Origin: an uncultured Actinomycetota bacterium
Lineage (GTDB): Bacteria; Actinomycetota; Actinomycetes; Propionibacteriales; Nocardioidaceae
Direction of reading: 5' to 3'
NCBI GenBank assembly: GCA_963767345.1
Contig: CAVYDO010000004.1
Location: 30,939 to 94,938, forward strand
DNA: 64,000 nucleotides
The position numbers and the translations under genes are program-made. Shown piece after piece: positions 42,890-50,419 of the stretch. Below the pieces are notes generated by a model that worked only from the letters and a program-made list of their open reading frames with translations, had not been told where the DNA came from and searched no databases. How positions within the stretch are numbered: the first letter of the stretch is position 1; every line of letters starts with the position of its first letter.

Positions 42890-43579
42890 ATGGATGCATC
42901 TCATCGACCAGCACCGGTCGCCCGCTGCCTGGCCGTGTGGAGTGGCATCACCCTGGCGGCCGCGGCCGTGCTCTGGTTCCTATCCCCCGACCTGCTCGCC
43001 CTCACCGGCCCGGGCGGGGCGACCTCCGGCGGTCTCGACGACCTGCTCGCCCGGTGGGGCGCGCTGATCGGCGCCGCCTGCGTCGTGTGGCTCTGGGCGG
43101 TGGGCTCGGTGGCCGTCGCCGAGGGCCTGACCGGCCGGTTTCCCGCCAGGGTCGCCGGCTGCCCCCTCGCGCTCCGGCGCCTCGTCCTCGCCTCCTGCGG
43201 CGCGGTCGTCACGGCCGGCCTCATCGCCCCGGCGCACGCCGGGCAGATCGGCGTCGACGACCCGGGCGAACGCCCGCGGACGCACGTGCTCTCGGGCCTC
43301 CCGCTGCCGGAGCGGCCATCGGCCGCTCCGGATCGGCCGCCTGCGCGTCCGGCGGCCGCGCCGCGCCCGGTCGAGCGTGAGGTCGTCGTGCGAGCCGGCG
43401 ACACCCTCTGGTCGCTCGCCGAGGCCACCGTGCCCGCGGCCCGCCGTACACCGGCGACCATCGCCGCCCGGGTCCGGACCATCTACGCGGCCAATCGTGA
43501 CCTCATCGGCGCCGATCCCGACCTGATCCACCCGCACCAGCGTCTGCGGGTCCCGCCACAACCCTCGGAGGAACGATGA
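42890..43579 (+). CDS. LysM domain membrane protein
   Basis: TM segments, then VVVRAGDTLWSLA...IGADPDLIHPHQRL. Confidence 0.85.
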   Translation: MDASHRPAPVARCLAVWSGITLAAAAVLWFLSPDLLALTGPGGATSGGLDDLLARWGALIGAACVVWLWAVGSVAVAEGLTGRFPARVAGCPLALRRLVLASCGAVVTAGLIAPAHAGQIGVDDPGERPRTHVLSGLPLPERPSAAPDRPPARPAAAPRPVEREVVVRAGDTLWSLAEATVPAARRTPATIAARVRTIYAANRDLIGADPDLIHPHQRLRVPPQPSEER

Positions 43580-44124
43580 GCAAGACGCCGAAGCCGGCCG
43601 CCCAAACCAACGCCGCCCCCGGCCGCATCACCCGGCTGAGACGCAGGGAGCCGCTCCCGTCCGCGGCACCGATCGACTCCTTCCAAGGAGCACTCGCGCT
43701 CGACCTCGGACCACGCCTCGCACCGCCGGAGGCGCCTCCGGTCAGCTCGGCGCCCATCGCCGACGACGCGGAGCTCCGGGAGTGGGAGCTCCTCCACCGG
43801 TCGGGGTTCGAGAAGTGGTCGTGGCGCTACCTGCAGACCGCCGTCGAGATCGCGGGCGGCGGTCGCCCGGCCGCCCAGCTCCTGCGGTGGAGTCGTCCCG
43901 TCGTCTACAACGAGCTCGGGCGGCTCGCGCAGTCCGCGGCGCGTCGCCAGCGTCCCGAGGGCCACCCCTGCCCGCAGCTCGTCACCCTGCACAGCAGCTT
44001 CGTGAGCCGGATGACCTGCGAGGTCACCGCACGGGTGCGGTACGGCGACCGCTACCGTGCCCTCGCCGCCCGCTTCGAGCTCCTCGAAGGCCGCATGCAG
44101 TGCACCGCACTCGAGCTGGGTTGA
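43576..44124 (+). CDS. Rv3235-family protein
   Basis: GRPAAQLLRW, RALAARFE, CTALELG; normally lies next to secA. Confidence 0.8.
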   Translation: MSKTPKPAAQTNAAPGRITRLRRREPLPSAAPIDSFQGALALDLGPRLAPPEAPPVSSAPIADDAELREWELLHRSGFEKWSWRYLQTAVEIAGGGRPAAQLLRWSRPVVYNELGRLAQSAARRQRPEGHPCPQLVTLHSSFVSRMTCEVTARVRYGDRYRALAARFELLEGRMQCTALELG

Positions 44125-44161
44125 CCACGGGGCTAACCACGGGCTAACCACGCGGTCAACC
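44119..44161. repeat. Short tandem/inverted repeat at the convergent junction of Rv3235 and the MBL gene
   Basis: GGTTGACC...GGTCAACC termini enclosing repeated ACCACGGGCTA-like units. Confidence 0.6.
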
Positions 44162-45376
44162 AGGAAACCGGATCTCCAGGGAGGCCCCGCGAGCAACCGC
44201 GCGGGTGTCGTGGAGGGTGCACCGCGAGCCGTAGAGCGACAGGGTCCCGTCCGTGTCGGGCACGCTGTCCCAGTCGCCGTCATGGGTGGACACCAGTGCA
44301 TGCCGGTCCCGCCCGTCGGGGCTCTGGTCCGGCATGAGCCGGTCGAACAGCTCCTCGTAGGTGCCGTTGTGGCTGCCGTGGTGCGAGATCTTGACGAAGT
44401 GCACCGGCTCGAGCAGCCCCTGCTCGGTCATCTTCCGCCACGAGCCGAGCTCGGCGTCGCCGGCGAAGAGCAGCCGCCAGCCGCGCCACTCGAGCTCGAG
44501 GACCACGCTGGTGTTGTTGTTGGCCCGGTCGATCTCCAGGATCTGGCGGCGGGTGCCGTTGAGCCGCGACGCCTGCAGGTCGAAGAAGGCTCCCGGCTCG
44601 ACGCCCACCGGCGGAACGGACAGACCCGGCGCCGTCTCGCGGGTGTCGGCGTCGGCGGCCGCGGCCGCCGACGTGAGGACCGGCGCGCTCGCCTGCCTCC
44701 GGTAGTACGACGCCGTGTCCTCCTCCGGCGCCAGGATGCGCAGGGTTGCCTCGCGGAAGGGATGCCTCTCGTCCAGGCCGGTCGTGGTGCGGTCGACGTA
44801 GTGGGTCCGGTCGGCCGGGGCGATGCCGCGCAGATGGTCGACGTAGTCGCAGGTCCTCAGCCCCAGCGCGCCCGGCGGCAGCATCGTCGAGTTGTTGCGG
44901 ATCATCATCTCCAGCCACGGGTCGGGGGCGGCCCGGGCGAGCCGATGCGCGTCCTCCAGCGCCAGCTCGAGCGAGCGCTTCCGCTTCCTCGCCTCGGGGT
45001 GGTTCGCGTAGTAGTCGGGGTGGGCCGACCCGGTGAGCCACGCATGCCGAGCCGCGAGCTCGACACCTGCCCGCTTCGCGGCCAGCAGTCCCTGGACGTG
45101 ATCGAGGTGCTCGTGCGTCATCACATAGAGGTCGACGGTGCCGCCGGTGCGGTCGGCGATGTCTCGCACCACGTCGGCGAAGACCGTGTCCTCGTTGCCG
45201 TCACCGGCCAGCAGGTTCCCCACGTCGATGAGGAGGTGGCGGGTCACCTCGGCGATTGGTCTCGACTCCTCGCTCGTCCCTCGCGAGGGCTCGACCACCG
45301 GGCCGCGCTCCGGCACCGAGACCAGGATCGCGTCACCGAACCCGACGTTGTACGCGCGCACCACCAGGTCGCTCAT
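44156..45376 (-). CDS. MBL-fold metallo-hydrolase (ComEC/Rec2-like)
   Basis: NVGFGDAILV, THEHLDHVQG (HxHxDH), NNTSVV, FAGDAE, KISHHGSHNG; no signal peptide; ATGA overlap with the protease gene. Confidence 0.85.
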   Translation of the reverse strand: MSDLVVRAYNVGFGDAILVSVPERGPVVEPSRGTSEESRPIAEVTRHLLIDVGNLLAGDGNEDTVFADVVRDIADRTGGTVDLYVMTHEHLDHVQGLLAAKRAGVELAARHAWLTGSAHPDYYANHPEARKRKRSLELALEDAHRLARAAPDPWLEMMIRNNSTMLPPGALGLRTCDYVDHLRGIAPADRTHYVDRTTTGLDERHPFREATLRILAPEEDTASYYRRQASAPVLTSAAAAADADTRETAPGLSVPPVGVEPGAFFDLQASRLNGTRRQILEIDRANNNTSVVLELEWRGWRLLFAGDAELGSWRKMTEQGLLEPVHFVKISHHGSHNGTYEELFDRLMPDQSPDGRDRHALVSTHDGDWDSVPDTDGTLSLYGSRCTLHDTRAVARGASLEIRFPG

Positions 45377-47067
45377 TCGTCCCATCCCGCGAGGTGGAGC
45401 AACCGGTGGCTGCAGCGTAGGCCGGCGTCACCCGTGCCCCGGAGCCCGACACCGGCCACATCGTCGGGCTCGAGCAGGCCCTCCTGCTCCAGCTGGGCGA
45501 GGAGTCCGTCCCGTTCCCGGCGATGACCGGCGCCGGTCACGTCGCTGTGCACAAGAGCCAGGCACTCCCCCGTCGCCCACTCGAGTACGACGGTCGAGCC
45601 GGTCGGGACCACCCGGATCCGGCCGGATCCACCTGCGGCGTCCTCCGTGTCGTTCCAGGAGATCTTCATGATCAGCTCCCGCTGGACCGGCGCGGCTCCG
45701 TCCCGCTTGGGCCCGATCACCTTCGTGCTGTCGACGCGGGGAAGCACCGTGAACGAGAGGCCGTCGGGGATTCCCAGCGTCGCTCGGCGCTGGGTGACGT
45801 ACTGGTAGGCCGCCCAGTCGCTGTCGTGCAGCTGCGGCACCTGACCCGCCGCGACCCCGAGCTCCCGCGGTCGCGCGCTGTCGAGTTCGCTCGCTCCGCC
45901 CACGACGAGCCGCTTGACGAACTGTGCGGCGAAGTGCGCCCGCTGCTCGAGGAGGGCCGTGCTCGCGTCGGCGTCGGGACGCGTCGCGCGATCGGCCGCC
46001 AGGGTCGCCCTGCCGACGTCGGCGAAGCTGAGCTCTCCGGGCGGCAGGTAGTCGATCCCGCGCAGCAGGAGCCTGCGGAAGATGATCTGCGCCGTGCCGA
46101 GTGCCCTGTTGGCGGCCGCTGCCGGCGAGAGCGCGACACCGCGGTCGTCGGGCATCTGCTCCGCTTCGAACCTGGTCGCGAAGATGAAGCTCAGGGTGTC
46201 GTAGAAGATCGCGGACAGCAGCGTGCTGAGGATGTGGGGCCGCGCGCCGGCCAGCGTCGTCAGGGTCTCGTCGTTCCTCAGGTCCCGCAGCGCACGGCGG
46301 GCCAGGCCATCGGCCCCGGGACGCGCCATGCCGAACTCCTCGGCGATGGCGTTGAACGCGTTCGCACCGGCCAGCGAGTTTTCGCTGCGGGCCAGCACCT
46401 CCTCGCGAAGGCGCCTGCTGTCGAGCGCCATGATCACCGCGATCAGGTCGGCGACGGCCTCATGGATCGCGATCGACTGTGGTGTCGAGCTGTCGTAGAG
46501 CGACGGGACCACGGCGTCGAGCAGGGCGTGTCCGCACTCGTGCGCGACGATGTCGCGACTCAGCGCGGTGTGGACCCGGACGCCCGACCTCCCAGCGAAC
46601 GAGAAGAACTGCAGGCTCCGGGTCCCCCTGTCGTAGAAGGCGTTGGCCCACTCCCCGGCTCGGGGCACGACGAGAAGCTGCTCGCTCCCGAACGCCCACT
46701 CGACCCTTCTCCCCAACGCGTCGGGACCCTCGAACATGCGCACCGTCAACAGCACCGTCCCGAACGCGTTGACAGCGATATTCGCCGCGGAGGTCGCGTC
46801 GCCGTCGGCTTCATACCTCCCGGAGCGGGGGTTGGACCTGAACGGCGTGAACCTGGCCGGCGGTGGGGCCGGAGCGCCGGTTGCGGGGTCGAAGTCGACG
46901 ATCGCGAACCGTCGGCACGCCGGCCCGTCGAGGAAGCGGTCGTTGTTGTCGCCGGACAGCTCGAGCTCCTTGGTCTCTCGGGCGGCGTCGCCCGGGGTGC
47001 CCATCTCGGCGAGGGACACCGAGCAGTCCTGGATGAGGAGCTCCACCTCGGCGACGACGTCAGCCAA
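45373..47067 (-). CDS. Cytoplasmic gluzincin zinc metalloprotease (M4/M36-like)
   Basis: NAFYD, AHECGH (HExxH), HEAVAD (ExxxD); TTG at 47067 with GGAGGT RBS; no signal peptide. Confidence 0.78.
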   Translation of the reverse strand: MADVVAEVELLIQDCSVSLAEMGTPGDAARETKELELSGDNNDRFLDGPACRRFAIVDFDPATGAPAPPPARFTPFRSNPRSGRYEADGDATSAANIAVNAFGTVLLTVRMFEGPDALGRRVEWAFGSEQLLVVPRAGEWANAFYDRGTRSLQFFSFAGRSGVRVHTALSRDIVAHECGHALLDAVVPSLYDSSTPQSIAIHEAVADLIAVIMALDSRRLREEVLARSENSLAGANAFNAIAEEFGMARPGADGLARRALRDLRNDETLTTLAGARPHILSTLLSAIFYDTLSFIFATRFEAEQMPDDRGVALSPAAAANRALGTAQIIFRRLLLRGIDYLPPGELSFADVGRATLAADRATRPDADASTALLEQRAHFAAQFVKRLVVGGASELDSARPRELGVAAGQVPQLHDSDWAAYQYVTQRRATLGIPDGLSFTVLPRVDSTKVIGPKRDGAAPVQRELIMKISWNDTEDAAGGSGRIRVVPTGSTVVLEWATGECLALVHSDVTGAGHRRERDGLLAQLEQEGLLEPDDVAGVGLRGTGDAGLRCSHRLLHLAGWDE

Positions 47068-47866
47068 GGCGCCCACCTCCGCGGAGCAGAGCGCCGAGCA
47101 GGGCATCAGTCGCCAGCCAGGCGCCCGCGGCGCCCACGAGGATCACCGGCACTGGGTCGCGCCACGCCCTGGGGTGCCAGGCCTCCCACCAGGCCGCCAG
47201 CGACGCGCAGACCATCAGGACCGGGCTGTGCCCGACGGTCATCGCCATCATCATCGGTCCGCAGAGCAGTGCGCAGCGACGCCAGGTCAGTACGCCGGCC
47301 ATCGTCGCGGTCACCACCCCACGGCGACCTCCCGGCGCCAGCGCCGGCAGCCTCTGGCACTTCTCCAGCAACCGGCTGCGCCGCGCCGAGCGCAGCGCGA
47401 CGAGGGCGAGGCAGACGCATGAGAGCTGCCACCAGACGCTGCCCGGCGGGAACGAGAGCGTCCGGGCGAGCATGGCCCCGGCCAGGCCGAAGGCCAACCA
47501 CAGGACGGTCACCGTGGCAAGGCAGACGCCTCCCAGCCGGGTGCGCCAGCCGCGGAAGCTGGATCGGCCGATCGCTCCGACCGTGGGGACGGCCAGCGGC
47601 CACATCATGGCGACCACCATCAGCAGCCAGGTCGCGACCCAGGTCGGGCTCCAGGGGTCGACCGGCCCGGCATCCGGCAAGGTCACGGAGAGAGGGTGGT
47701 GAGCCGCGGCCGACTCGGTTTCGCCGTGGCCGTGGGCACCGACCGGCCACGGAAGAACCAGCGCCACCCACGCCGCCGCCGTACCGGCCAGCACGACCCG
47801 TGCGGTCGTGGAGCCGAGCGCCTCCGTCAGGCGCACCGACGATCGCGGTGCCTGCAGCAGGGTCAT
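47060..47866 (-). CDS. DUF2182 putative metal-binding membrane protein
   Basis: WLLMVVAMMWP, KCQ, CALLCGPMMM; His-rich loop AHGHG...HH; ATGA overlap with tyrosinase. Confidence 0.72.
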   Translation of the reverse strand: MTLLQAPRSSVRLTEALGSTTARVVLAGTAAAWVALVLPWPVGAHGHGETESAAAHHPLSVTLPDAGPVDPWSPTWVATWLLMVVAMMWPLAVPTVGAIGRSSFRGWRTRLGGVCLATVTVLWLAFGLAGAMLARTLSFPPGSVWWQLSCVCLALVALRSARRSRLLEKCQRLPALAPGGRRGVVTATMAGVLTWRRCALLCGPMMMAMTVGHSPVLMVCASLAAWWEAWHPRAWRDPVPVILVGAAGAWLATDALLGALLRGGGRLG

Positions 47867-49233
47867 CGCTGCTGCTCGTAAACCGTCACCTGCTCGACGT
47901 GAATCCCCCGATCCGGGTCGTCGGAGTCGGGCCGCCCGGCTTCGGGGACGAGGTTCACCGACAGCTGCCCGCCGGTCCATCCCTCCGCCAGCAGGTCGGG
48001 CAGGATGCCGGAGGCGTCCACCAGGTAGCTGCGCTCCTCCTCGGGTGGGGTCCCGAGCAGACCGAAGGTCGCGAACCTCCCGGCTCGGTGGGGCTCCTGG
48101 TCGGGCGCGGAGCGCACCTCGACGACGTACGCCGCATGCGGCTCGACCGCGCGCACCCCGGCGAACTCCAGGACCAGGCGAGTCGGTGGCGGGTCGTCCA
48201 GCCCGCGGGGTGCGGTGTGGAAGACGACATCGCGCTCCTCACCGGAGTCCAGGTTGAAGCTGGCAGCCACCGGCTCCCATCGGGGCTCGGCCTCGTCCAA
48301 GGGGATCCCGCCTCCCTGCATCGCCTCGCGAGCGGCGGCGATGGCCGTCGCGGCCGCGTCCGGCAGCTCGATCGACTCGTACTCGTAGTCCATCTTCGCG
48401 CTGGACAGGTCCTCGACGTCGTCCATCGTGTACGTCGAGGGCGACTGCTCGGAGCCGAACCAGAAGATCGCCGACCGCCACTGCGTGGCGAGGAAGGCCG
48501 ACGCCCCACCGGGGTCCGTCAGGCGAACCGAGCCCGGGAGCGAGAGCCACACCTCCCACAGCCGGTCGATGTTGGCGTGGTGCAGCCAGAAGATCGGGTC
48601 CTGGCCGGCCGTGGCCGGGCTCTGCATGAGTCCGCCGATGTCCACGTGCACCCAGTTGTGCGGCGCACTCTCCACGTCACCGAATCGGCGGTCGCGGTCG
48701 GTGCCGCCGAAGCCGACGTCCGGCACGCCGCCGACGAAGCGGGGCTCGGTGAGCGCAGGCACGACGTCGATGTCCTCGGCCGGGATGGGACCGTCGTTGC
48801 GGGTCGAGTCGAAGAGCGGGTTCGGCACGACCTGGCCGCCGACGGTCCTCGTGGGCACCCGGAACTCCGCGGGAAGGAATGCCGCGTCGGGGTTGTCCGG
48901 GTTGGAGTAGTCCCAGTAGGGCAGCCCCCAGCCGTCCTCGCCGGTGAGCCTCCGGACGGTCCCCTCGAACCAGGCGAGGTAGCCGCGGTGCCAGGCCAGG
49001 AAGAAGAGCGAGGCGTGCGCGCACTGCCCCCAGGCAGGGCGCGGCGGCGTACCCGAGGGGAATCCGTGGGTGTTGGCCGCCCACTGCCACGACTCGGGGT
49101 CCTCGGTGGGCAGGGCGCGCATCAGCGCGACGCCCCGGGCGTAGGTGTCGAGGACCGGGTCCCACTCCTGGGTCCGTGCGTCGGCCTCGTTGCCGAGCGT
49201 CAGTGTGGCGATGTCGTGCCGCGTCCGAACCAT
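47863..49233 (-). CDS. Tyrosinase/polyphenol oxidase with a C-terminal extra domain
   Basis: CuA: NTHG...QCAH...FLAWHR; CuB: PHNWVH...DPIFWLHHANIDRLW; YEY motif; no signal peptide. Confidence 0.92.
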   Translation of the reverse strand: MVRTRHDIATLTLGNEADARTQEWDPVLDTYARGVALMRALPTEDPESWQWAANTHGFPSGTPPRPAWGQCAHASLFFLAWHRGYLAWFEGTVRRLTGEDGWGLPYWDYSNPDNPDAAFLPAEFRVPTRTVGGQVVPNPLFDSTRNDGPIPAEDIDVVPALTEPRFVGGVPDVGFGGTDRDRRFGDVESAPHNWVHVDIGGLMQSPATAGQDPIFWLHHANIDRLWEVWLSLPGSVRLTDPGGASAFLATQWRSAIFWFGSEQSPSTYTMDDVEDLSSAKMDYEYESIELPDAAATAIAAAREAMQGGGIPLDEAEPRWEPVAASFNLDSGEERDVVFHTAPRGLDDPPPTRLVLEFAGVRAVEPHAAYVVEVRSAPDQEPHRAGRFATFGLLGTPPEEERSYLVDASGILPDLLAEGWTGGQLSVNLVPEAGRPDSDDPDRGIHVEQVTVYEQQR

Positions 49234-49411
49234 GGCCTTCTCCCCGCGTCTGTACGTCGAGTACGTCGGGTCCACGATCCTCGGACCGCGCGGCGATGCA
49301 CATGGCCCGAACGGGTCAGTTCGGCGAGTGCCGATCCCGACAACGAGCCGCCGCTCGGGTCAGCGCGGCGCTCGGCCTTGCCCGGTCGGCCTGGTCTGCC
49401 GTGCAAACTAG

Positions 49412-49456
49412 TTGACAGCACTCTCCTGAGGGACTAAGTTGGCAGCACAAACTAGT
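49412..49456 (+). promoter_or_regulatory. Principal-sigma promoter with an overlapping imperfect palindrome
   Basis: TTGACA (49412-49417)-N17-TAAGTT (49435-49440); ACTAAGTTG-N6-CAAACTAGT at 49433-49456. Confidence 0.65.
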
Positions 49457-49469
49457 CTGGGAGATCGAG

Positions 49470-50072
49470 ATGGAGCGGACGAAGCTCGAGTCGGCGGCGG
49501 CGAACTACACCTACCTGCGGGGACTCTTCCTCATCCCGTTGGGCGTGCTCCCGATCGTCAGCGCGTTGGGGAACACGGGTTGGGGCCCGCTGCGGAGCAC
49601 CTGGGTGTTCCTGGCGGTCGTGGGGCTGGTCGGGATCGCCTGCCTCCCGATCAACAGCTTCTACAACAAGCACTACGGCAGGCTTCGCCCCTCGGCGCGA
49701 CAACAGGCACGTGCCTCCGTCGCGGTCGTCCTCGCCATCGTGGTGGTCGTGGTGGGTTCGACGCTGCTGCGAAGCCGCGCGGACTGGTCCTTGAACCTCC
49801 CGGTCAACGCGACCGCGGTGACGTTGTCCCTGGTCGTCCTCCTCTCCTACGCTGCCGGCCGCGTCCTCAACACCCACCACCTGATCATCTGGGGGACCGT
49901 CCTGTTGGCGGGGGCGATCCCACTGTGGGACGGGGCGGACCCGAGCAATATCGGCCTGGCGATCGTGGGAGTGGCGATGATGGTGAACGGCCTCTTCGAC
50001 CACCTGCTCTTCGTCCGCACCTTCGGTACTCCCGCGGGCCTCGACGGCCAGGGCGGCCATGCCCGAGCCTAA
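49470..50072 (+). CDS. Hypothetical multi-pass membrane protein
   Basis: 200 aa, about 6 hydrophobic segments; overlaps the downstream regulator gene. Confidence 0.7.
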   Translation: MERTKLESAAANYTYLRGLFLIPLGVLPIVSALGNTGWGPLRSTWVFLAVVGLVGIACLPINSFYNKHYGRLRPSARQQARASVAVVLAIVVVVVGSTLLRSRADWSLNLPVNATAVTLSLVVLLSYAAGRVLNTHHLIIWGTVLLAGAIPLWDGADPSNIGLAIVGVAMMVNGLFDHLLFVRTFGTPAGLDGQGGHARA

Positions 50073-50373
50073 GCCCGAGCCGGTGCTCGACCGACTGGTT
50101 CACGAGCCCGGCCGGCTGGCGATCCTGACGGTTCTCTCCTCGGTGACCGATGCCGACTTCGTCTTCCTGCAGCGCGCGACGGGGCTGACCAAGGGCAACC
50201 TCTCCAGCCACCTCACCAAGCTCGAGGACGCGGGACTCGTCGCGATCGAGAAGCGGTTCGTGCGGAGGAAGCCGAACACCAATATCGCCCTGACCGGGTC
50301 CGGCAGGACGCGAGTCACCCAGCACTGGGAACAGCTCGACCAGCTCAGGCGCCTCTCGGAGCCGCCGCCATGA
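50059..50373 (+). CDS. Winged-helix transcriptional regulator (ArsR/MarR-like)
   Basis: LDRLVHEPGRLAILTVL...GNLSSHLTKLEDAGLV. Confidence 0.88.
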   Translation: MPEPKPEPVLDRLVHEPGRLAILTVLSSVTDADFVFLQRATGLTKGNLSSHLTKLEDAGLVAIEKRFVRRKPNTNIALTGSGRTRVTQHWEQLDQLRRLSEPPP

Positions 50374-50419
50374 TCGGCCGCAAGACCCGCCAGTGCTTGC
50401 TCGGGCCCGGCGTGCCTAC

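What the first reader, a model, noticed from the sequence alone, without database searches (positions are those of the whole stretch)
44156..47067. Cytoplasmic gluzincin protease fused in operon to a ComEC-like MBL hydrolase
Seen: a 564-aa thermolysin/fungalysin-like protease without secretion signal directly coupled to a 406-aa MBL. Known: protease plus MBL-fold nuclease pairs occur in bacterial conflict and anti-phage systems (for example Avs1-associated and trypsin-MBL modules), usually with serine or caspase-like proteases. Inference: a metalloprotease version of a cleavage-activated nuclease/hydrolase, which may also exist independently of tyrosinase.
Basis: partly seen in the sequence, partly recalled or inferred. 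Interest (0 to 1): 0.65.

Follow-up and report, generated by a model that had tools for sequence, protein, structure and literature searches.

The report
Zinc protease paired with latent nuclease
Two tightly coupled genes, a cell-internal thermolysin-like zinc protease and a DNA-uptake-type (ComEC-like) nuclease, form a mobile pair found across many phyla. It most likely works like the recently described "protease switches on a suicide nuclease" antiviral modules, but with a protease class not yet reported for them, and here it has also picked up a tyrosinase.

Summary
On the minus strand, a 564-aa signal-less HExxH...HExxxD protease (45373-47067) overlaps by ATGA a 406-aa ComEC-like MBL hydrolase (44156-45376). 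They are the last two genes of a tyrosinase, copper chaperone, protease, MBL operon.

- **Protease:** it has no Pfam, NCBIfam or PADLOC hit, but it folds as an M4/M36 thermolysin-like enzyme.
- **MBL:** it keeps all metal motifs. Relative to the ComEC nuclease domain it carries an insertion of about 130 residues with one disordered Ala-rich loop. Its whole family matches the defence-type MBL models (Lamassu, DRT, Avs1a).
- **The pair:** protease followed by MBL recurs in 61 of about 93 related loci, in many bacterial phyla, in Bathyarchaeia and on conjugative plasmids. The two proteins co-diverge (Mantel r = 0.89).
- **Partners:** these vary between loci: tyrosinase with chaperone, patatin, or a Tle1-like lipase.
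- **Here:** the operon lies in a 6.3-kb insertion that is absent from seven of eight congeners.

Best reading (about 50%): a metalloprotease version of the protease-gated MBL pro-nuclease modules (HamM, Avs1a, CanC). No cleavage, DNase activity or anti-phage effect has been tested. Novelty: a new variant of a known kind.

The parts
45373..47067 (-). Thermolysin-like (gluzincin) zinc protease, 564 aa, cytoplasmic. It has no propeptide and carries an extra C-terminal alpha/beta domain (about residues 439-558).
   Evidence: TTG start with a GGAGG Shine-Dalgarno sequence. HExxH plus HExxxD are invariant. Foldseek top 16 hits are all M4/M36. The family profile hits thermolysin residues 137-180 at E = 9e-4. 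No Pfam, NCBIfam or PADLOC hit. No signal peptide or transmembrane segment.
46528..46542 (-). HECGH zinc-binding and catalytic motif (residues 176-180). The third ligand motif, E203..D207, lies at 46447-46461.
   Evidence: It aligns with thermolysin HELTH...NEAISD.
44156..45376 (-). ComEC-like MBL-fold hydrolase, a putative latent DNase, 406 aa.
   Evidence: ATGA overlap with the protease stop. H88, H90, D92, D307, K329, H332 and H333 are invariant in 40 homologues. Best matches are ComEC MBL 9ic4 by sequence and by fold. PADLOC LmuA, RTasMBL and Avs1a hits.
44627..44692 (-). Disordered Ala-rich loop of the MBL (residues 229-250, ASAPVLTSAAAAADADTRETAP). It lies inside the roughly 130-residue insertion relative to ComEC and is the candidate gating loop and cleavage site.
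   Evidence: It is the only segment with pLDDT below 50 in the AF2 model. Its length is variable and its complexity low across homologues. The insertion was mapped against 9ic4. Its position relative to the active site was not tested.
47060..47866 (-). PpoB2-like membrane copper chaperone. Its likely start is M39 of the ORF, an ATGA overlap with the tyrosinase stop. Its stop overlaps the protease start by 8 nt.
   Evidence: Pfam PF09948 PpoB2, E = 5e-6, below the gathering score. Hydrophobic segments. Conserved next to the tyrosinase in relatives.
47863..49275 (-). Signal-less tyrosinase with an Ala-rich linker and a C-terminal domain of about 130 aa (weak DUF7868 hit). It is the first gene of the operon and an optional partner of the pair.
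   Evidence: Pfam Tyrosinase, E = 2e-36. Present upstream in 10 of 15 close loci. It is confined to one actinobacterial clade plus one independent case.
44125..50419 (.). A 6.3-kb insertion between the convergent DUF6459 gene and secA. It holds the four-gene operon plus a membrane-protein gene (49470-50072, +) and an HTH_34 regulator gene (50059-50373, +).
   Evidence: In 7 of 8 same-genus genomes DUF6459 and secA are 13-243 nt apart. None of the 36 other same-genus genomes searched has the orthologue.
44119..44161 (.). A 20-nt-arm inverted repeat between the convergent stops of DUF6459 and the MBL gene, probably a bidirectional terminator hairpin.

Best explanation
The protease and the MBL form a self-contained, horizontally mobile two-gene module of the conflict or defence type.

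Proposed mechanism:
- The MBL is made as a latent ComEC-type DNase. An inserted region holding a disordered Ala-rich loop keeps it inactive.
- On an unknown trigger, probably infection or a related stress, the cytoplasmic thermolysin-like protease cuts that loop. The trigger may be sensed through the protease's extra C-terminal domain.
- The freed nuclease degrades DNA, which stops growth or kills the cell.

This would be a metalloprotease counterpart of the trypsin-, caspase- and subtilase-linked gated MBL pro-nucleases.

In this Nocardioides-like genome the pair sits behind a tyrosinase and its copper chaperone. Elsewhere it sits beside patatin or Tle1-like lipases. These are best read as optional extra effectors, possibly also switched on by the same protease.

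Shown: gene structure, folds, intact catalytic motifs, conservation of the pair, co-divergence, mobility, and kinship of the MBL with defence-type MBLs.
Inferred: cleavage, DNase activity, the trigger, and the defence role.
For: 1. Coupling: the genes overlap as ATGA, and the protease has a GGAGG Shine-Dalgarno sequence.
2. Conservation: the protease is directly followed by the MBL in 15 of 15 close loci. The same holds in 61 distinct loci out of about 93 that carry a homologue. These span Actinomycetota, Chloroflexota, Planctomycetota, Pseudomonadota, Acidobacteriota, Gemmatimonadota, Bacteroidota, Verrucomicrobiota, Nitrospinota, Myxococcota and Bathyarchaeia.
3. Co-divergence: Mantel r = 0.89 between protease and MBL distance matrices. 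It is 0.78 for distant pairs only, and the permutation maximum was 0.145.
4. Mobility:
   - Phyla are intermixed in the protease tree.
   - The orthologue is in none of the 36 other same-genus genomes searched.
   - Here it is a 6.3-kb insertion.
   - Homologues lie on 33 plasmid records, 18 of them conjugative.
   - An IS110 transposase gene (Pfam Transposase_20) follows the second pair in L003.
5. MBL identity: all metal motifs are invariant. The best relative is the ComEC nuclease domain. All 40 family members hit the PADLOC LmuA-type MBL, 39 hit RTasMBL and 35 hit Avs1a.
6. Gating features: an insertion of about 130 residues relative to ComEC, with a single disordered loop at residues 229-250.
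7. Protease competence: a thermolysin fold with the complete catalytic set, namely NAFY, HExxH, E203/D207, R261 and H278.
8. Precedent: gated MBL pro-nucleases activated by a partner protease have been shown experimentally (PMC12799240; bioRxiv 10.1101/2025.09.03.673762).
9. Swappable toxic partners: patatin in 16 of 62 pairs, Tle1-like lipase, and tyrosinase. This is typical of modular conflict systems.
Against: - There is no experimental evidence of any kind for this family.
- No sensor is recognisable, and no known defence protein is fused to the protease. In the trypsin modules the protease is fused to HamA, Avs or similar.
- The MBL has one disordered loop. HamM and CanC have two gating insertions. 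Most of the insertion here is well-folded helices.
- I could not see coordinates, so whether the loop or insertion covers the metal site is unknown.
- The second-best structural match is a phosphorylcholine esterase, Pce, so a non-nuclease phosphodiesterase activity is not excluded.
- No PADLOC system matches, and no defence-island statistics were computed. The flanks here are housekeeping genes.
- Co-divergence follows from co-inheritance and does not prove a protease-substrate relation.
- Two loci (L017, L030) have tyrosinase plus protease without an MBL, so the MBL need not be the protease's only or main target.
Confidence: 0.5

Rival explanations
1. Pro-phenoloxidase maturation module. In this operon the protease's real job is to cut off the C-terminal lid domain of the latent, signal-less tyrosinase, so that melanin or quinone is made on demand. 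The MBL is a parallel or accessory enzyme, not the key substrate.
For: - The tyrosinase has an Ala-rich linker and an extra C-terminal domain, like latent fungal and plant enzymes.
- The tyrosinase, chaperone and protease genes are translationally coupled.
- Two loci (L017, L030) have tyrosinase plus protease but no MBL.
- L049 shows an independent second association between a tyrosinase and a distant pair.
Against: - The protease-MBL pair is the conserved unit. Only about 10 of 62 pairs have a tyrosinase, all but one in a single actinobacterial clade.
- Within that clade, L005, L008, L009 and L011 have lost or replaced the tyrosinase but kept the MBL.
- This reading is compatible with the best explanation rather than exclusive of it.
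Confidence: 0.2
2. Envelope and lipid-degrading enzyme set. The MBL is a phosphodiesterase of the Pce or phospholipase C/D type rather than a nuclease. It acts with patatin or Tle1-like lipases, and the protease matures or accompanies them, for membrane remodelling, autolysis or attack on other cells.
For: - The second to fourth structural matches of the MBL are the phosphorylcholine esterase Pce (E = 7e-9 to 9e-8).
- Lipases recur beside the pair.
- On plasmids and in some genomes the neighbours include peptidoglycan-binding or lytic proteins and S8 peptidases.
Against: - The best sequence and fold matches are the ComEC nuclease domain, and the defence nuclease models hit all members.
- About 70% of pairs have no lipase nearby.
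- There are no signal peptides and no secretion genes.
Confidence: 0.12
3. An ordinary cytoplasmic peptidase and an unrelated hydrolase that are merely co-transcribed, for example for nutrient scavenging or stress proteolysis. There is no activation relationship and no conflict role.
For: - No sensor, trigger or known defence protein is present.
- The flanks in this window are housekeeping genes.
- MBL-less relatives of the protease are protealysin-like enzymes with their inhibitor emfourin. Their biology is not defence, as far as I know.
Against: - The gene order and overlap are kept across phyla and in archaea.
- The two proteins co-diverge.
- The pair is extremely patchy and also lies on plasmids.
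- The toxic partner genes vary between loci.
- The MBL is kin to defence effectors.
Confidence: 0.1

Closest known systems
Protease-gated MBL pro-nuclease modules: HamM with trypsin-HamAB (Hachiman), Avs1a/Avs1b (AVAST type 1), the Lamassu and DRT variants, and the caspase-nuclease CanABC (Tuck et al., Science 2025, PMC12799240; Huang et al., bioRxiv 10.1101/2025.09.03.673762)
   Same: - A ComEC-like MBL encoded next to a protease gene.
- Insertion(s) with a disordered loop relative to the competence nuclease.
- Co-evolving protease and nuclease.
- A mobile, patchy distribution.
- MBL sequence kinship (PADLOC LmuA, RTasMBL, Avs1a).
- As in canu, the nuclease gene lies downstream of the protease gene.
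   Different: - The protease is a thermolysin-like zinc metalloprotease, not a trypsin, caspase/CHAT or subtilase.
- It stands alone, with no fused HamA, STAND, SMC or RT sensor.
- One disordered loop is predicted, not two.
- The partners are lipases or a tyrosinase.
- Nothing has been tested experimentally.
Thermolysin family M4, in particular the signal-less protealysin-like proteases with their inhibitor emfourin
   Same: - The gluzincin motifs HExxH...ExxxD, the NAF[YW] edge strand, and the Arg and His of the active site.
- A two-lobe thermolysin fold.
- Cytoplasmic, with no signal peptide.
- MBL-less relatives in my locus set are followed by emfourin genes.
   Different: - It scores below the Pfam M4 thresholds.
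- It has no FTP/PepSY or PPL-type propeptide.
- It has an extra conserved C-terminal domain of about 120 aa with an invariant His in the tail.
- Its partner is an MBL, not emfourin.
ComEC/Rec2 C-terminal MBL nuclease domain (PDB 9ic4, 9vc6)
   Same: It is the best sequence and fold match, and it shares the HxHxDH, NNxS, GDA and HHGS motifs.
   Different: - It is a soluble, stand-alone protein, without the competence channel or OB domains.
- It has an insertion of about 130 residues.
Marinomonas-type tyrosinase with its PpoB2 copper chaperone. This is the operon's upstream half.
   Same: A tyrosinase gene followed by a PpoB2-like membrane protein gene.
   Different: - The PpoB2 match is below Pfam's gathering score.
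- The tyrosinase carries an extra C-terminal domain.
- It is welded to the protease-MBL pair.

Membership tests
Protease-gated MBL pro-nuclease module (HamM/Avs1a/CanC type) | ComEC-like MBL with intact metal-binding motifs | tested here: met
   H88, H90, D92, D307, H332 and H333 are invariant in 40 sequences. ComEC 9ic4 is the top hit by sequence and by fold.
Protease-gated MBL pro-nuclease module (HamM/Avs1a/CanC type) | Nuclease gene operonic with, and co-evolving with, a protease gene | tested here: met
   ATGA overlap. 62 pairs in 61 loci. Mantel r = 0.89.
Protease-gated MBL pro-nuclease module (HamM/Avs1a/CanC type) | Partner protease is of the trypsin, caspase/CHAT or subtilase family, usually fused to or accompanied by a sensor | tested here: not met
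   The partner is a thermolysin-like zincin with no fused known sensor domain. The supplement of PMC12799240 lists only those three protease families.
Protease-gated MBL pro-nuclease module (HamM/Avs1a/CanC type) | Disordered insertions that block the nuclease active site | tested here: inconclusive
   There is an insertion of about 130 residues relative to 9ic4, with one disordered loop at residues 229-250. Only one loop was found, against two in HamM and CanC.
Protease-gated MBL pro-nuclease module (HamM/Avs1a/CanC type) | Site-specific cleavage turns the MBL into a DNase, and the system protects against phage | not testable with these tools
   This needs biochemistry and phage assays.
AVAST type 1 Avs1a (NCBIfam NF041809) | Score at or above the curated equivalog cut-off (420 bits) | tested here: not met
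   33.7 bits over residues 283-349 only.
Peptidase family M4 (thermolysin) | HExxH plus a Glu 20-25 residues downstream within ExxxD, on a thermolysin two-lobe fold | tested here: met
   H176, E177, H180, E203 and D207 are invariant. Foldseek probability 1.00 to 16 M4/M36 structures. The profile aligns to thermolysin residues 137-180.
Peptidase family M4 (thermolysin) | Reaches the Pfam Peptidase_M4 or M4_C gathering score, and has a secreted pre-pro architecture (signal peptide, FTP/PepSY propeptide) | tested here: not met
   The window protein has no Pfam or NCBIfam hit. The L003 paralogue scores 18.3 bits against a cut-off of 22.4. There is no signal peptide. HExxH at residue 176 leaves no room for a propeptide ahead of the N-lobe.
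ComEC/Rec2 competence protein (TIGR00361) | Polytopic competence channel with OB/DUF4131 domains plus the MBL domain, scoring at or above 190 bits | tested here: not met
   20.8 bits, covering the MBL part only. No transmembrane segment.

The most novel reading that the evidence does not exclude
The thermolysin-like protease is a stand-alone initiator protease. It senses infection or damage through its conserved extra C-terminal domain and then activates several cytoplasmic pro-enzymes in parallel. In this operon these are a gated DNase and a latent, lid-bearing tyrosinase. The locus would then be a bacterial counterpart of the arthropod prophenoloxidase cascade, with protease-triggered intracellular quinone or melanin chemistry plus DNA degradation acting as an immune or cell-suicide effector. 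The lipase versions would use the same hub with other zymogens.
Probability: 0.15. Interest if true: 0.85.

Novelty: new variant of a known kind. Interest (0 to 1): 0.62.

Why it matters
If true, it adds a fourth protease class, the metalloproteases, to the newly recognised principle that bacterial immunity stores nucleases as zymogens and fires them by proteolysis.

The family is large. About 980 clusters at 50% identity score E <= 1e-30. It spans many bacterial phyla and Bathyarchaeia. Annotation-based screens cannot see it, because the protease matches no Pfam, NCBIfam or PADLOC model.

The protease stands alone, so the pair could be a minimal sensor-plus-activator-plus-effector system and a simple model for how such proteases are kept silent.

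The tyrosinase-bearing version seen here would be the first hint of a phenoloxidase used as a protease-controlled effector in bacteria.

Tried and rejected
- Pfam, NCBIfam and PADLOC scans of the protease found nothing. A single-sequence PDB search gave only noise. Its identity needed the alignment, the fold and the profile search.
- I looked for a domain shared by the tyrosinase and the patatin partners, as a possible common protease tag. There is none.
- I clustered all other flanking ORFs of 95 loci to find a hidden third core gene or a sensor. No cluster was present in more than 7 loci.
- I looked for att-like direct repeats at the island borders and found none, only a hairpin between the convergent stops.
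- The sigma-70 promoter and intrinsic terminator scan of the operon found nothing, as expected for a DNA with about 71% G+C.
- Literature searches for tyrosinase plus MBL plus anti-phage, and for DUF7868, returned 0 papers. Searches for a metalloprotease together with pro-nuclease found nothing relevant beyond the two trypsin/caspase papers.
- The phage collection holds only two weak partial hits, so this is not a phage gene.
- I considered and rejected a membership claim for Avs1a, ComEC or canonical M4 (see the membership tests).
- I considered a secreted or T6SS-type effector arsenal. I ranked it low because there are no signal peptides and no secretion genes, and the pair occurs in Actinomycetota and archaea.
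Full report
**Setting.** The window has about 71% G+C. The closest homologues of the genes studied are from Nocardioides. On the minus strand four genes run head to tail:
- A tyrosinase at 47863-49275 (Pfam Tyrosinase, E = 2e-36), with a weak, sub-threshold DUF7868 C-terminal domain.
- A PpoB2-like membrane copper chaperone. Its probable start, M39 at 47866, overlaps the tyrosinase stop as ATGA, and it stops at 47060.
- The flagged protease.
- The flagged MBL.

The operon is bounded by the convergent DUF6459 gene (43576-44124) and by a divergent membrane-protein gene (49470-50072).

**Observation check.**
- The protease starts at TTG 47067, eight bases after a GGAGG (47076-47080), and overlaps the chaperone stop by 8 nt. 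It gives 564 aa, the same length as the collection's own product P0001.
- The MBL ATG at 45376 overlaps the protease TGA as ATGA, giving 406 aa.
- Neither protein has a signal peptide or a transmembrane segment.
These are two genes, not a protein fusion.

**The protease.**
- It matches no Pfam, NCBIfam or PADLOC model. None of 36 diverse family members matches PADLOC either.
- It carries HECGH at residues 176-180 and HEAVAD at 202-207.
- In 36 homologues down to 26% identity, the invariant residues include H176, E177, H180, E203, D207, Y145 (within N-A-F-Y) and R261. H278 is nearly invariant. By my knowledge of thermolysin, these correspond to H142, E143, H146, E166, D170, the N112-W115 strand, R203 and H231.
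- The family profile aligns this block to thermolysin residues 137-180 (E = 9e-4).
- An AlphaFold2 model (pLDDT 88, pTM 0.91) finds only M4 and M36 proteases as its 16 significant PDB matches, at probability 1.00 and target TM-scores of 0.52-0.64.
- With HExxH at residue 176, there is room for the thermolysin N-lobe but not for an FTP/PepSY propeptide.
- After the catalytic lobes comes a conserved alpha/beta domain (about residues 439-558). An invariant His558 lies in the C-terminal tail and an invariant Asp14 near the N-terminus. Their roles are unknown.
- A profile search of 1.84 billion representative proteins found 3,373 clusters at E <= 1e-3 and 982 at E <= 1e-30, most matched over their full length. 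The weaker part of that list certainly includes other M4 enzymes.

**The MBL.**
- In 40 homologues, H88, H90, D92 (motif HxHxDH), D307 (motif GDA), K329 and H332/H333 (motif HHGS) are invariant. The NNTS strand is conserved (N287 invariant; N288, T289, S290 in at least 90%).
- The best solved relative is the MBL nuclease domain of ComEC. A single-sequence search gives E = 4e-6, the profile gives 5e-13, and the fold search gives E = 2e-13 with TM 0.73. The next structural matches are the phosphorylcholine esterase Pce, and then beta-CASP RNases at much weaker scores.
- The profile aligns positions 9-90 and 287-358 to 9ic4 residues 2-78 and 145-212. About 197 positions therefore stand where ComEC has 67, an insertion of roughly 130 residues.
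- In the AF2 model (pLDDT 88, pTM 0.89) most of this insertion is confident helix. One segment, residues 229-250 (ASAPVLTSAAAAADADTRETAP), is disordered, with pLDDT below 50. In the alignment this stretch is variable in length and low in complexity.
- All 40 members match the PADLOC LmuA-type MBL model (best E = 3e-22), 39 match the DRT-associated MBL, 35 match Avs1a and up to 32 match PDC-M48B. The window protein is far below the Avs1a and ComEC equivalog cut-offs.

**The pair is the unit.**
- All 15 close loci (39-80% identity) keep the protease directly followed by the MBL.
- A second scan with a diverse alignment returned 80 more loci. With iterated local HMMs, 62 protease-MBL pairs were found in 61 distinct loci out of about 93 carrying a protease homologue. 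Nearly always the MBL start lies at or within a few bases of the protease stop.
- Hosts span ten bacterial phyla and Bathyarchaeia.
- The distance matrices of the two proteins correlate with Mantel r = 0.89. The value is 0.78 for protein pairs under 45% identity, and the maximum of 2,000 permutations was 0.145.
- In the protease tree, phyla are thoroughly intermixed. Examples are Pseudomonas beside Solibacteraceae, and Bathyarchaeia within a mixed Chloroflexota/Actinomycetota clade. The co-divergence therefore reflects travelling together by horizontal transfer rather than species descent.
- Homologues lie on 33 plasmid records, 18 of them conjugative, and essentially not in phages.

**Variable partners.**
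- The tyrosinase plus chaperone precede the pair in 10 of 15 close loci.
- In the tree these fall in one well-supported actinobacterial clade of 13 rows. L049 is an independent case, where a convergent tyrosinase-chaperone pair abuts a distant patatin-protease-MBL set.
- Inside the tyrosinase clade, the Kribbella loci have a patatin instead, L005 has a patatin after the MBL, and L011 has neither.
- Three loci have both a tyrosinase upstream and a patatin downstream (L001, L002, L013). L003 has the same arrangement, but there the patatin also heads a second, distant pair. That patatin-protease-MBL set lies in tandem with the first and is followed by an IS110 transposase gene.
- Patatin is near 16 of 62 pairs and is scattered over the whole tree, needing at least 10 gains or losses.
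- Of 32 other upstream proteins, three are Tle1-like phospholipases and one is a haem peroxidase. The rest are miscellaneous.
- No other gene recurs in more than 7 loci, so no third core gene or dedicated sensor was found.
- Two loci have tyrosinase plus protease but no detectable MBL (L017, L030).
- MBL-less relatives are of other kinds. Some are protealysin-like proteases followed by the inhibitor emfourin. Others are proteases preceded by a caspase-amidase fusion.

**This locus is an insertion.**
- None of the 36 other genomes of the genus has an orthologue. Two have only distant paralogues.
- In seven of eight congeners, the DUF6459 gene and secA are 13-243 nt apart. Here they are 6.3 kb apart.
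- The segment 44125-50419 holds the operon plus a small membrane-protein gene and an HTH_34 regulator gene.
- The wider flanks are housekeeping genes: secA, hpf, mrp/apbC and tatA.
- No direct repeats mark the borders.

**Comparison with what is known.**
- Tuck et al. (Science 2025, PMC12799240) showed that HamM and Avs1a, ComEC-like MBLs, are gated pro-nucleases. Disordered insertions block their active sites, and the partner trypsin-like protease cleaves them, in HamM after I118 and I218. A caspase (CanAB) activates CanC in the same way.
- Their supplement names three operonic protease families around such nucleases: subtilase, caspase/CHAT and trypsin. The main text does not contain the words metalloprotease, thermolysin or zincin. 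In the supplementary files held as text, neither thermolysin nor zinc occurs, and "metallo" occurs once, in "metallo-beta-lactamase".
- Huang et al. (bioRxiv 10.1101/2025.09.03.673762) reached the same mechanism for trypsin-MBL, and they do not mention metalloproteases either.
- Further searches found no paper on a metalloprotease-MBL pair or on a tyrosinase in such a context.
- The library is incomplete, so this is absence in what I could search, not proof of absence.

**Interpretation.**
- The features that those authors propose as hallmarks, protease co-evolution and active-site-blocking insertions, are met for the first and only partly testable for the second.
- My best explanation (about 0.5) is that the pair is a metalloprotease version of the protease-gated pro-nuclease, with the tyrosinase or a lipase as an add-on effector.
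- Against it:
  - Only one disordered loop is predicted.
  - No sensor is recognisable.
  - The Pce-like alternative activity is not excluded.
  - No functional data exist.
- The rivals are tyrosinase maturation as the main role in this clade, an envelope or lipid-degrading enzyme set, and mere co-transcription. They are given separately with their refuting results. The first is compatible with the main reading.

**Earlier notes of this scan** describe the same protease-MBL(-patatin) pair in at least eight other genomes and pointed me to the HamM/Canu literature. I read those papers myself and re-derived pair conservation, plasmid carriage and the disordered loop independently. The gasdermin-bearing variant reported there was not checked.

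**Verdict.**
Independence from tyrosinase is shown. Cleavage activation is plausible but untested.
- It is a new variant of a known kind. It is of real interest because the family is large, is invisible to current annotation, and here is joined to a tyrosinase.

Noticed in passing
window 44125-50419: The four-gene operon plus a 200-aa membrane-protein gene (49470-50072) and an HTH_34/PadR-like regulator gene (50059-50373) form a 6.3-kb insertion between DUF6459 and secA. In 7 of 8 congeners those two genes are adjacent. No flanking direct repeats were found.
   Followed up: yes
window 44119-44161: An inverted repeat with 20-nt arms (80% complementary), containing GGGCTAACCAC tandem repeats, sits exactly between the convergent stop codons of DUF6459 and the MBL gene. 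It is probably a bidirectional terminator.
   Followed up: partly
L003 3735-15806: A Nocardioides MAG carries two distant protease-MBL pairs in tandem (about 28% identity between the proteases). The order is tyrosinase-chaperone-protease-MBL, then patatin-protease-MBL, followed by a sulfatase gene and an IS110-family transposase gene.
   Followed up: partly
L017 647-4612; L030 5151-8581: A tyrosinase gene lies directly upstream of a homologous protease gene with no MBL gene detectable downstream. This hints at a direct protease-tyrosinase link independent of the MBL. The 489-aa protein downstream in L017 has no Pfam hit.
   Followed up: partly
L039 8228-8530; L045 8151-8582 (also L050, L067, L090): MBL-less relatives of the protease are followed by a small emfourin gene (PF20242), the known inhibitor of protealysin-like M4 proteases. 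The zincin of the pair is therefore a sister of the protealysin group.
   Followed up: partly
L087 3518-6598; L089 3574-6510: In a Pseudomonas fluorescens genome and a Burkholderiales genome, a protein of about 1,000 aa that fuses an N-acetylmuramoyl-L-alanine amidase to a caspase (C14) domain sits directly upstream of a related zincin with no MBL.
   Followed up: no
L096 (Rhizobium phaseoli plasmid pRphaR630c) 1667-14390: On a conjugative plasmid the protease-MBL pair sits in a co-directional run with two S8 peptidases, a protein annotated as 'phage tail tip lysozyme', an FRG-domain protein and DUF3616. In L097 the neighbours are patatin, DUF3616, DUF2272 and a peptidoglycan-binding protein, and the zincin is annotated as 'serine protease'.
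   Followed up: no
window 47863-49275 and 44627-44692: The linker between the tyrosinase core and its C-terminal domain (ELPDAAATAIAAAREAMQGGG...) and the disordered loop of the MBL (ASAPVLTSAAAAADADTRETAP) are both Ala-rich. They could be cut sites for the same protease.
   Followed up: no
L015 209-5641: In a Gemmatimonadota MAG, a 733-aa S8 subtilase with a PPC domain lies about 250 nt upstream of the protease-MBL pair on the same strand.
   Followed up: no
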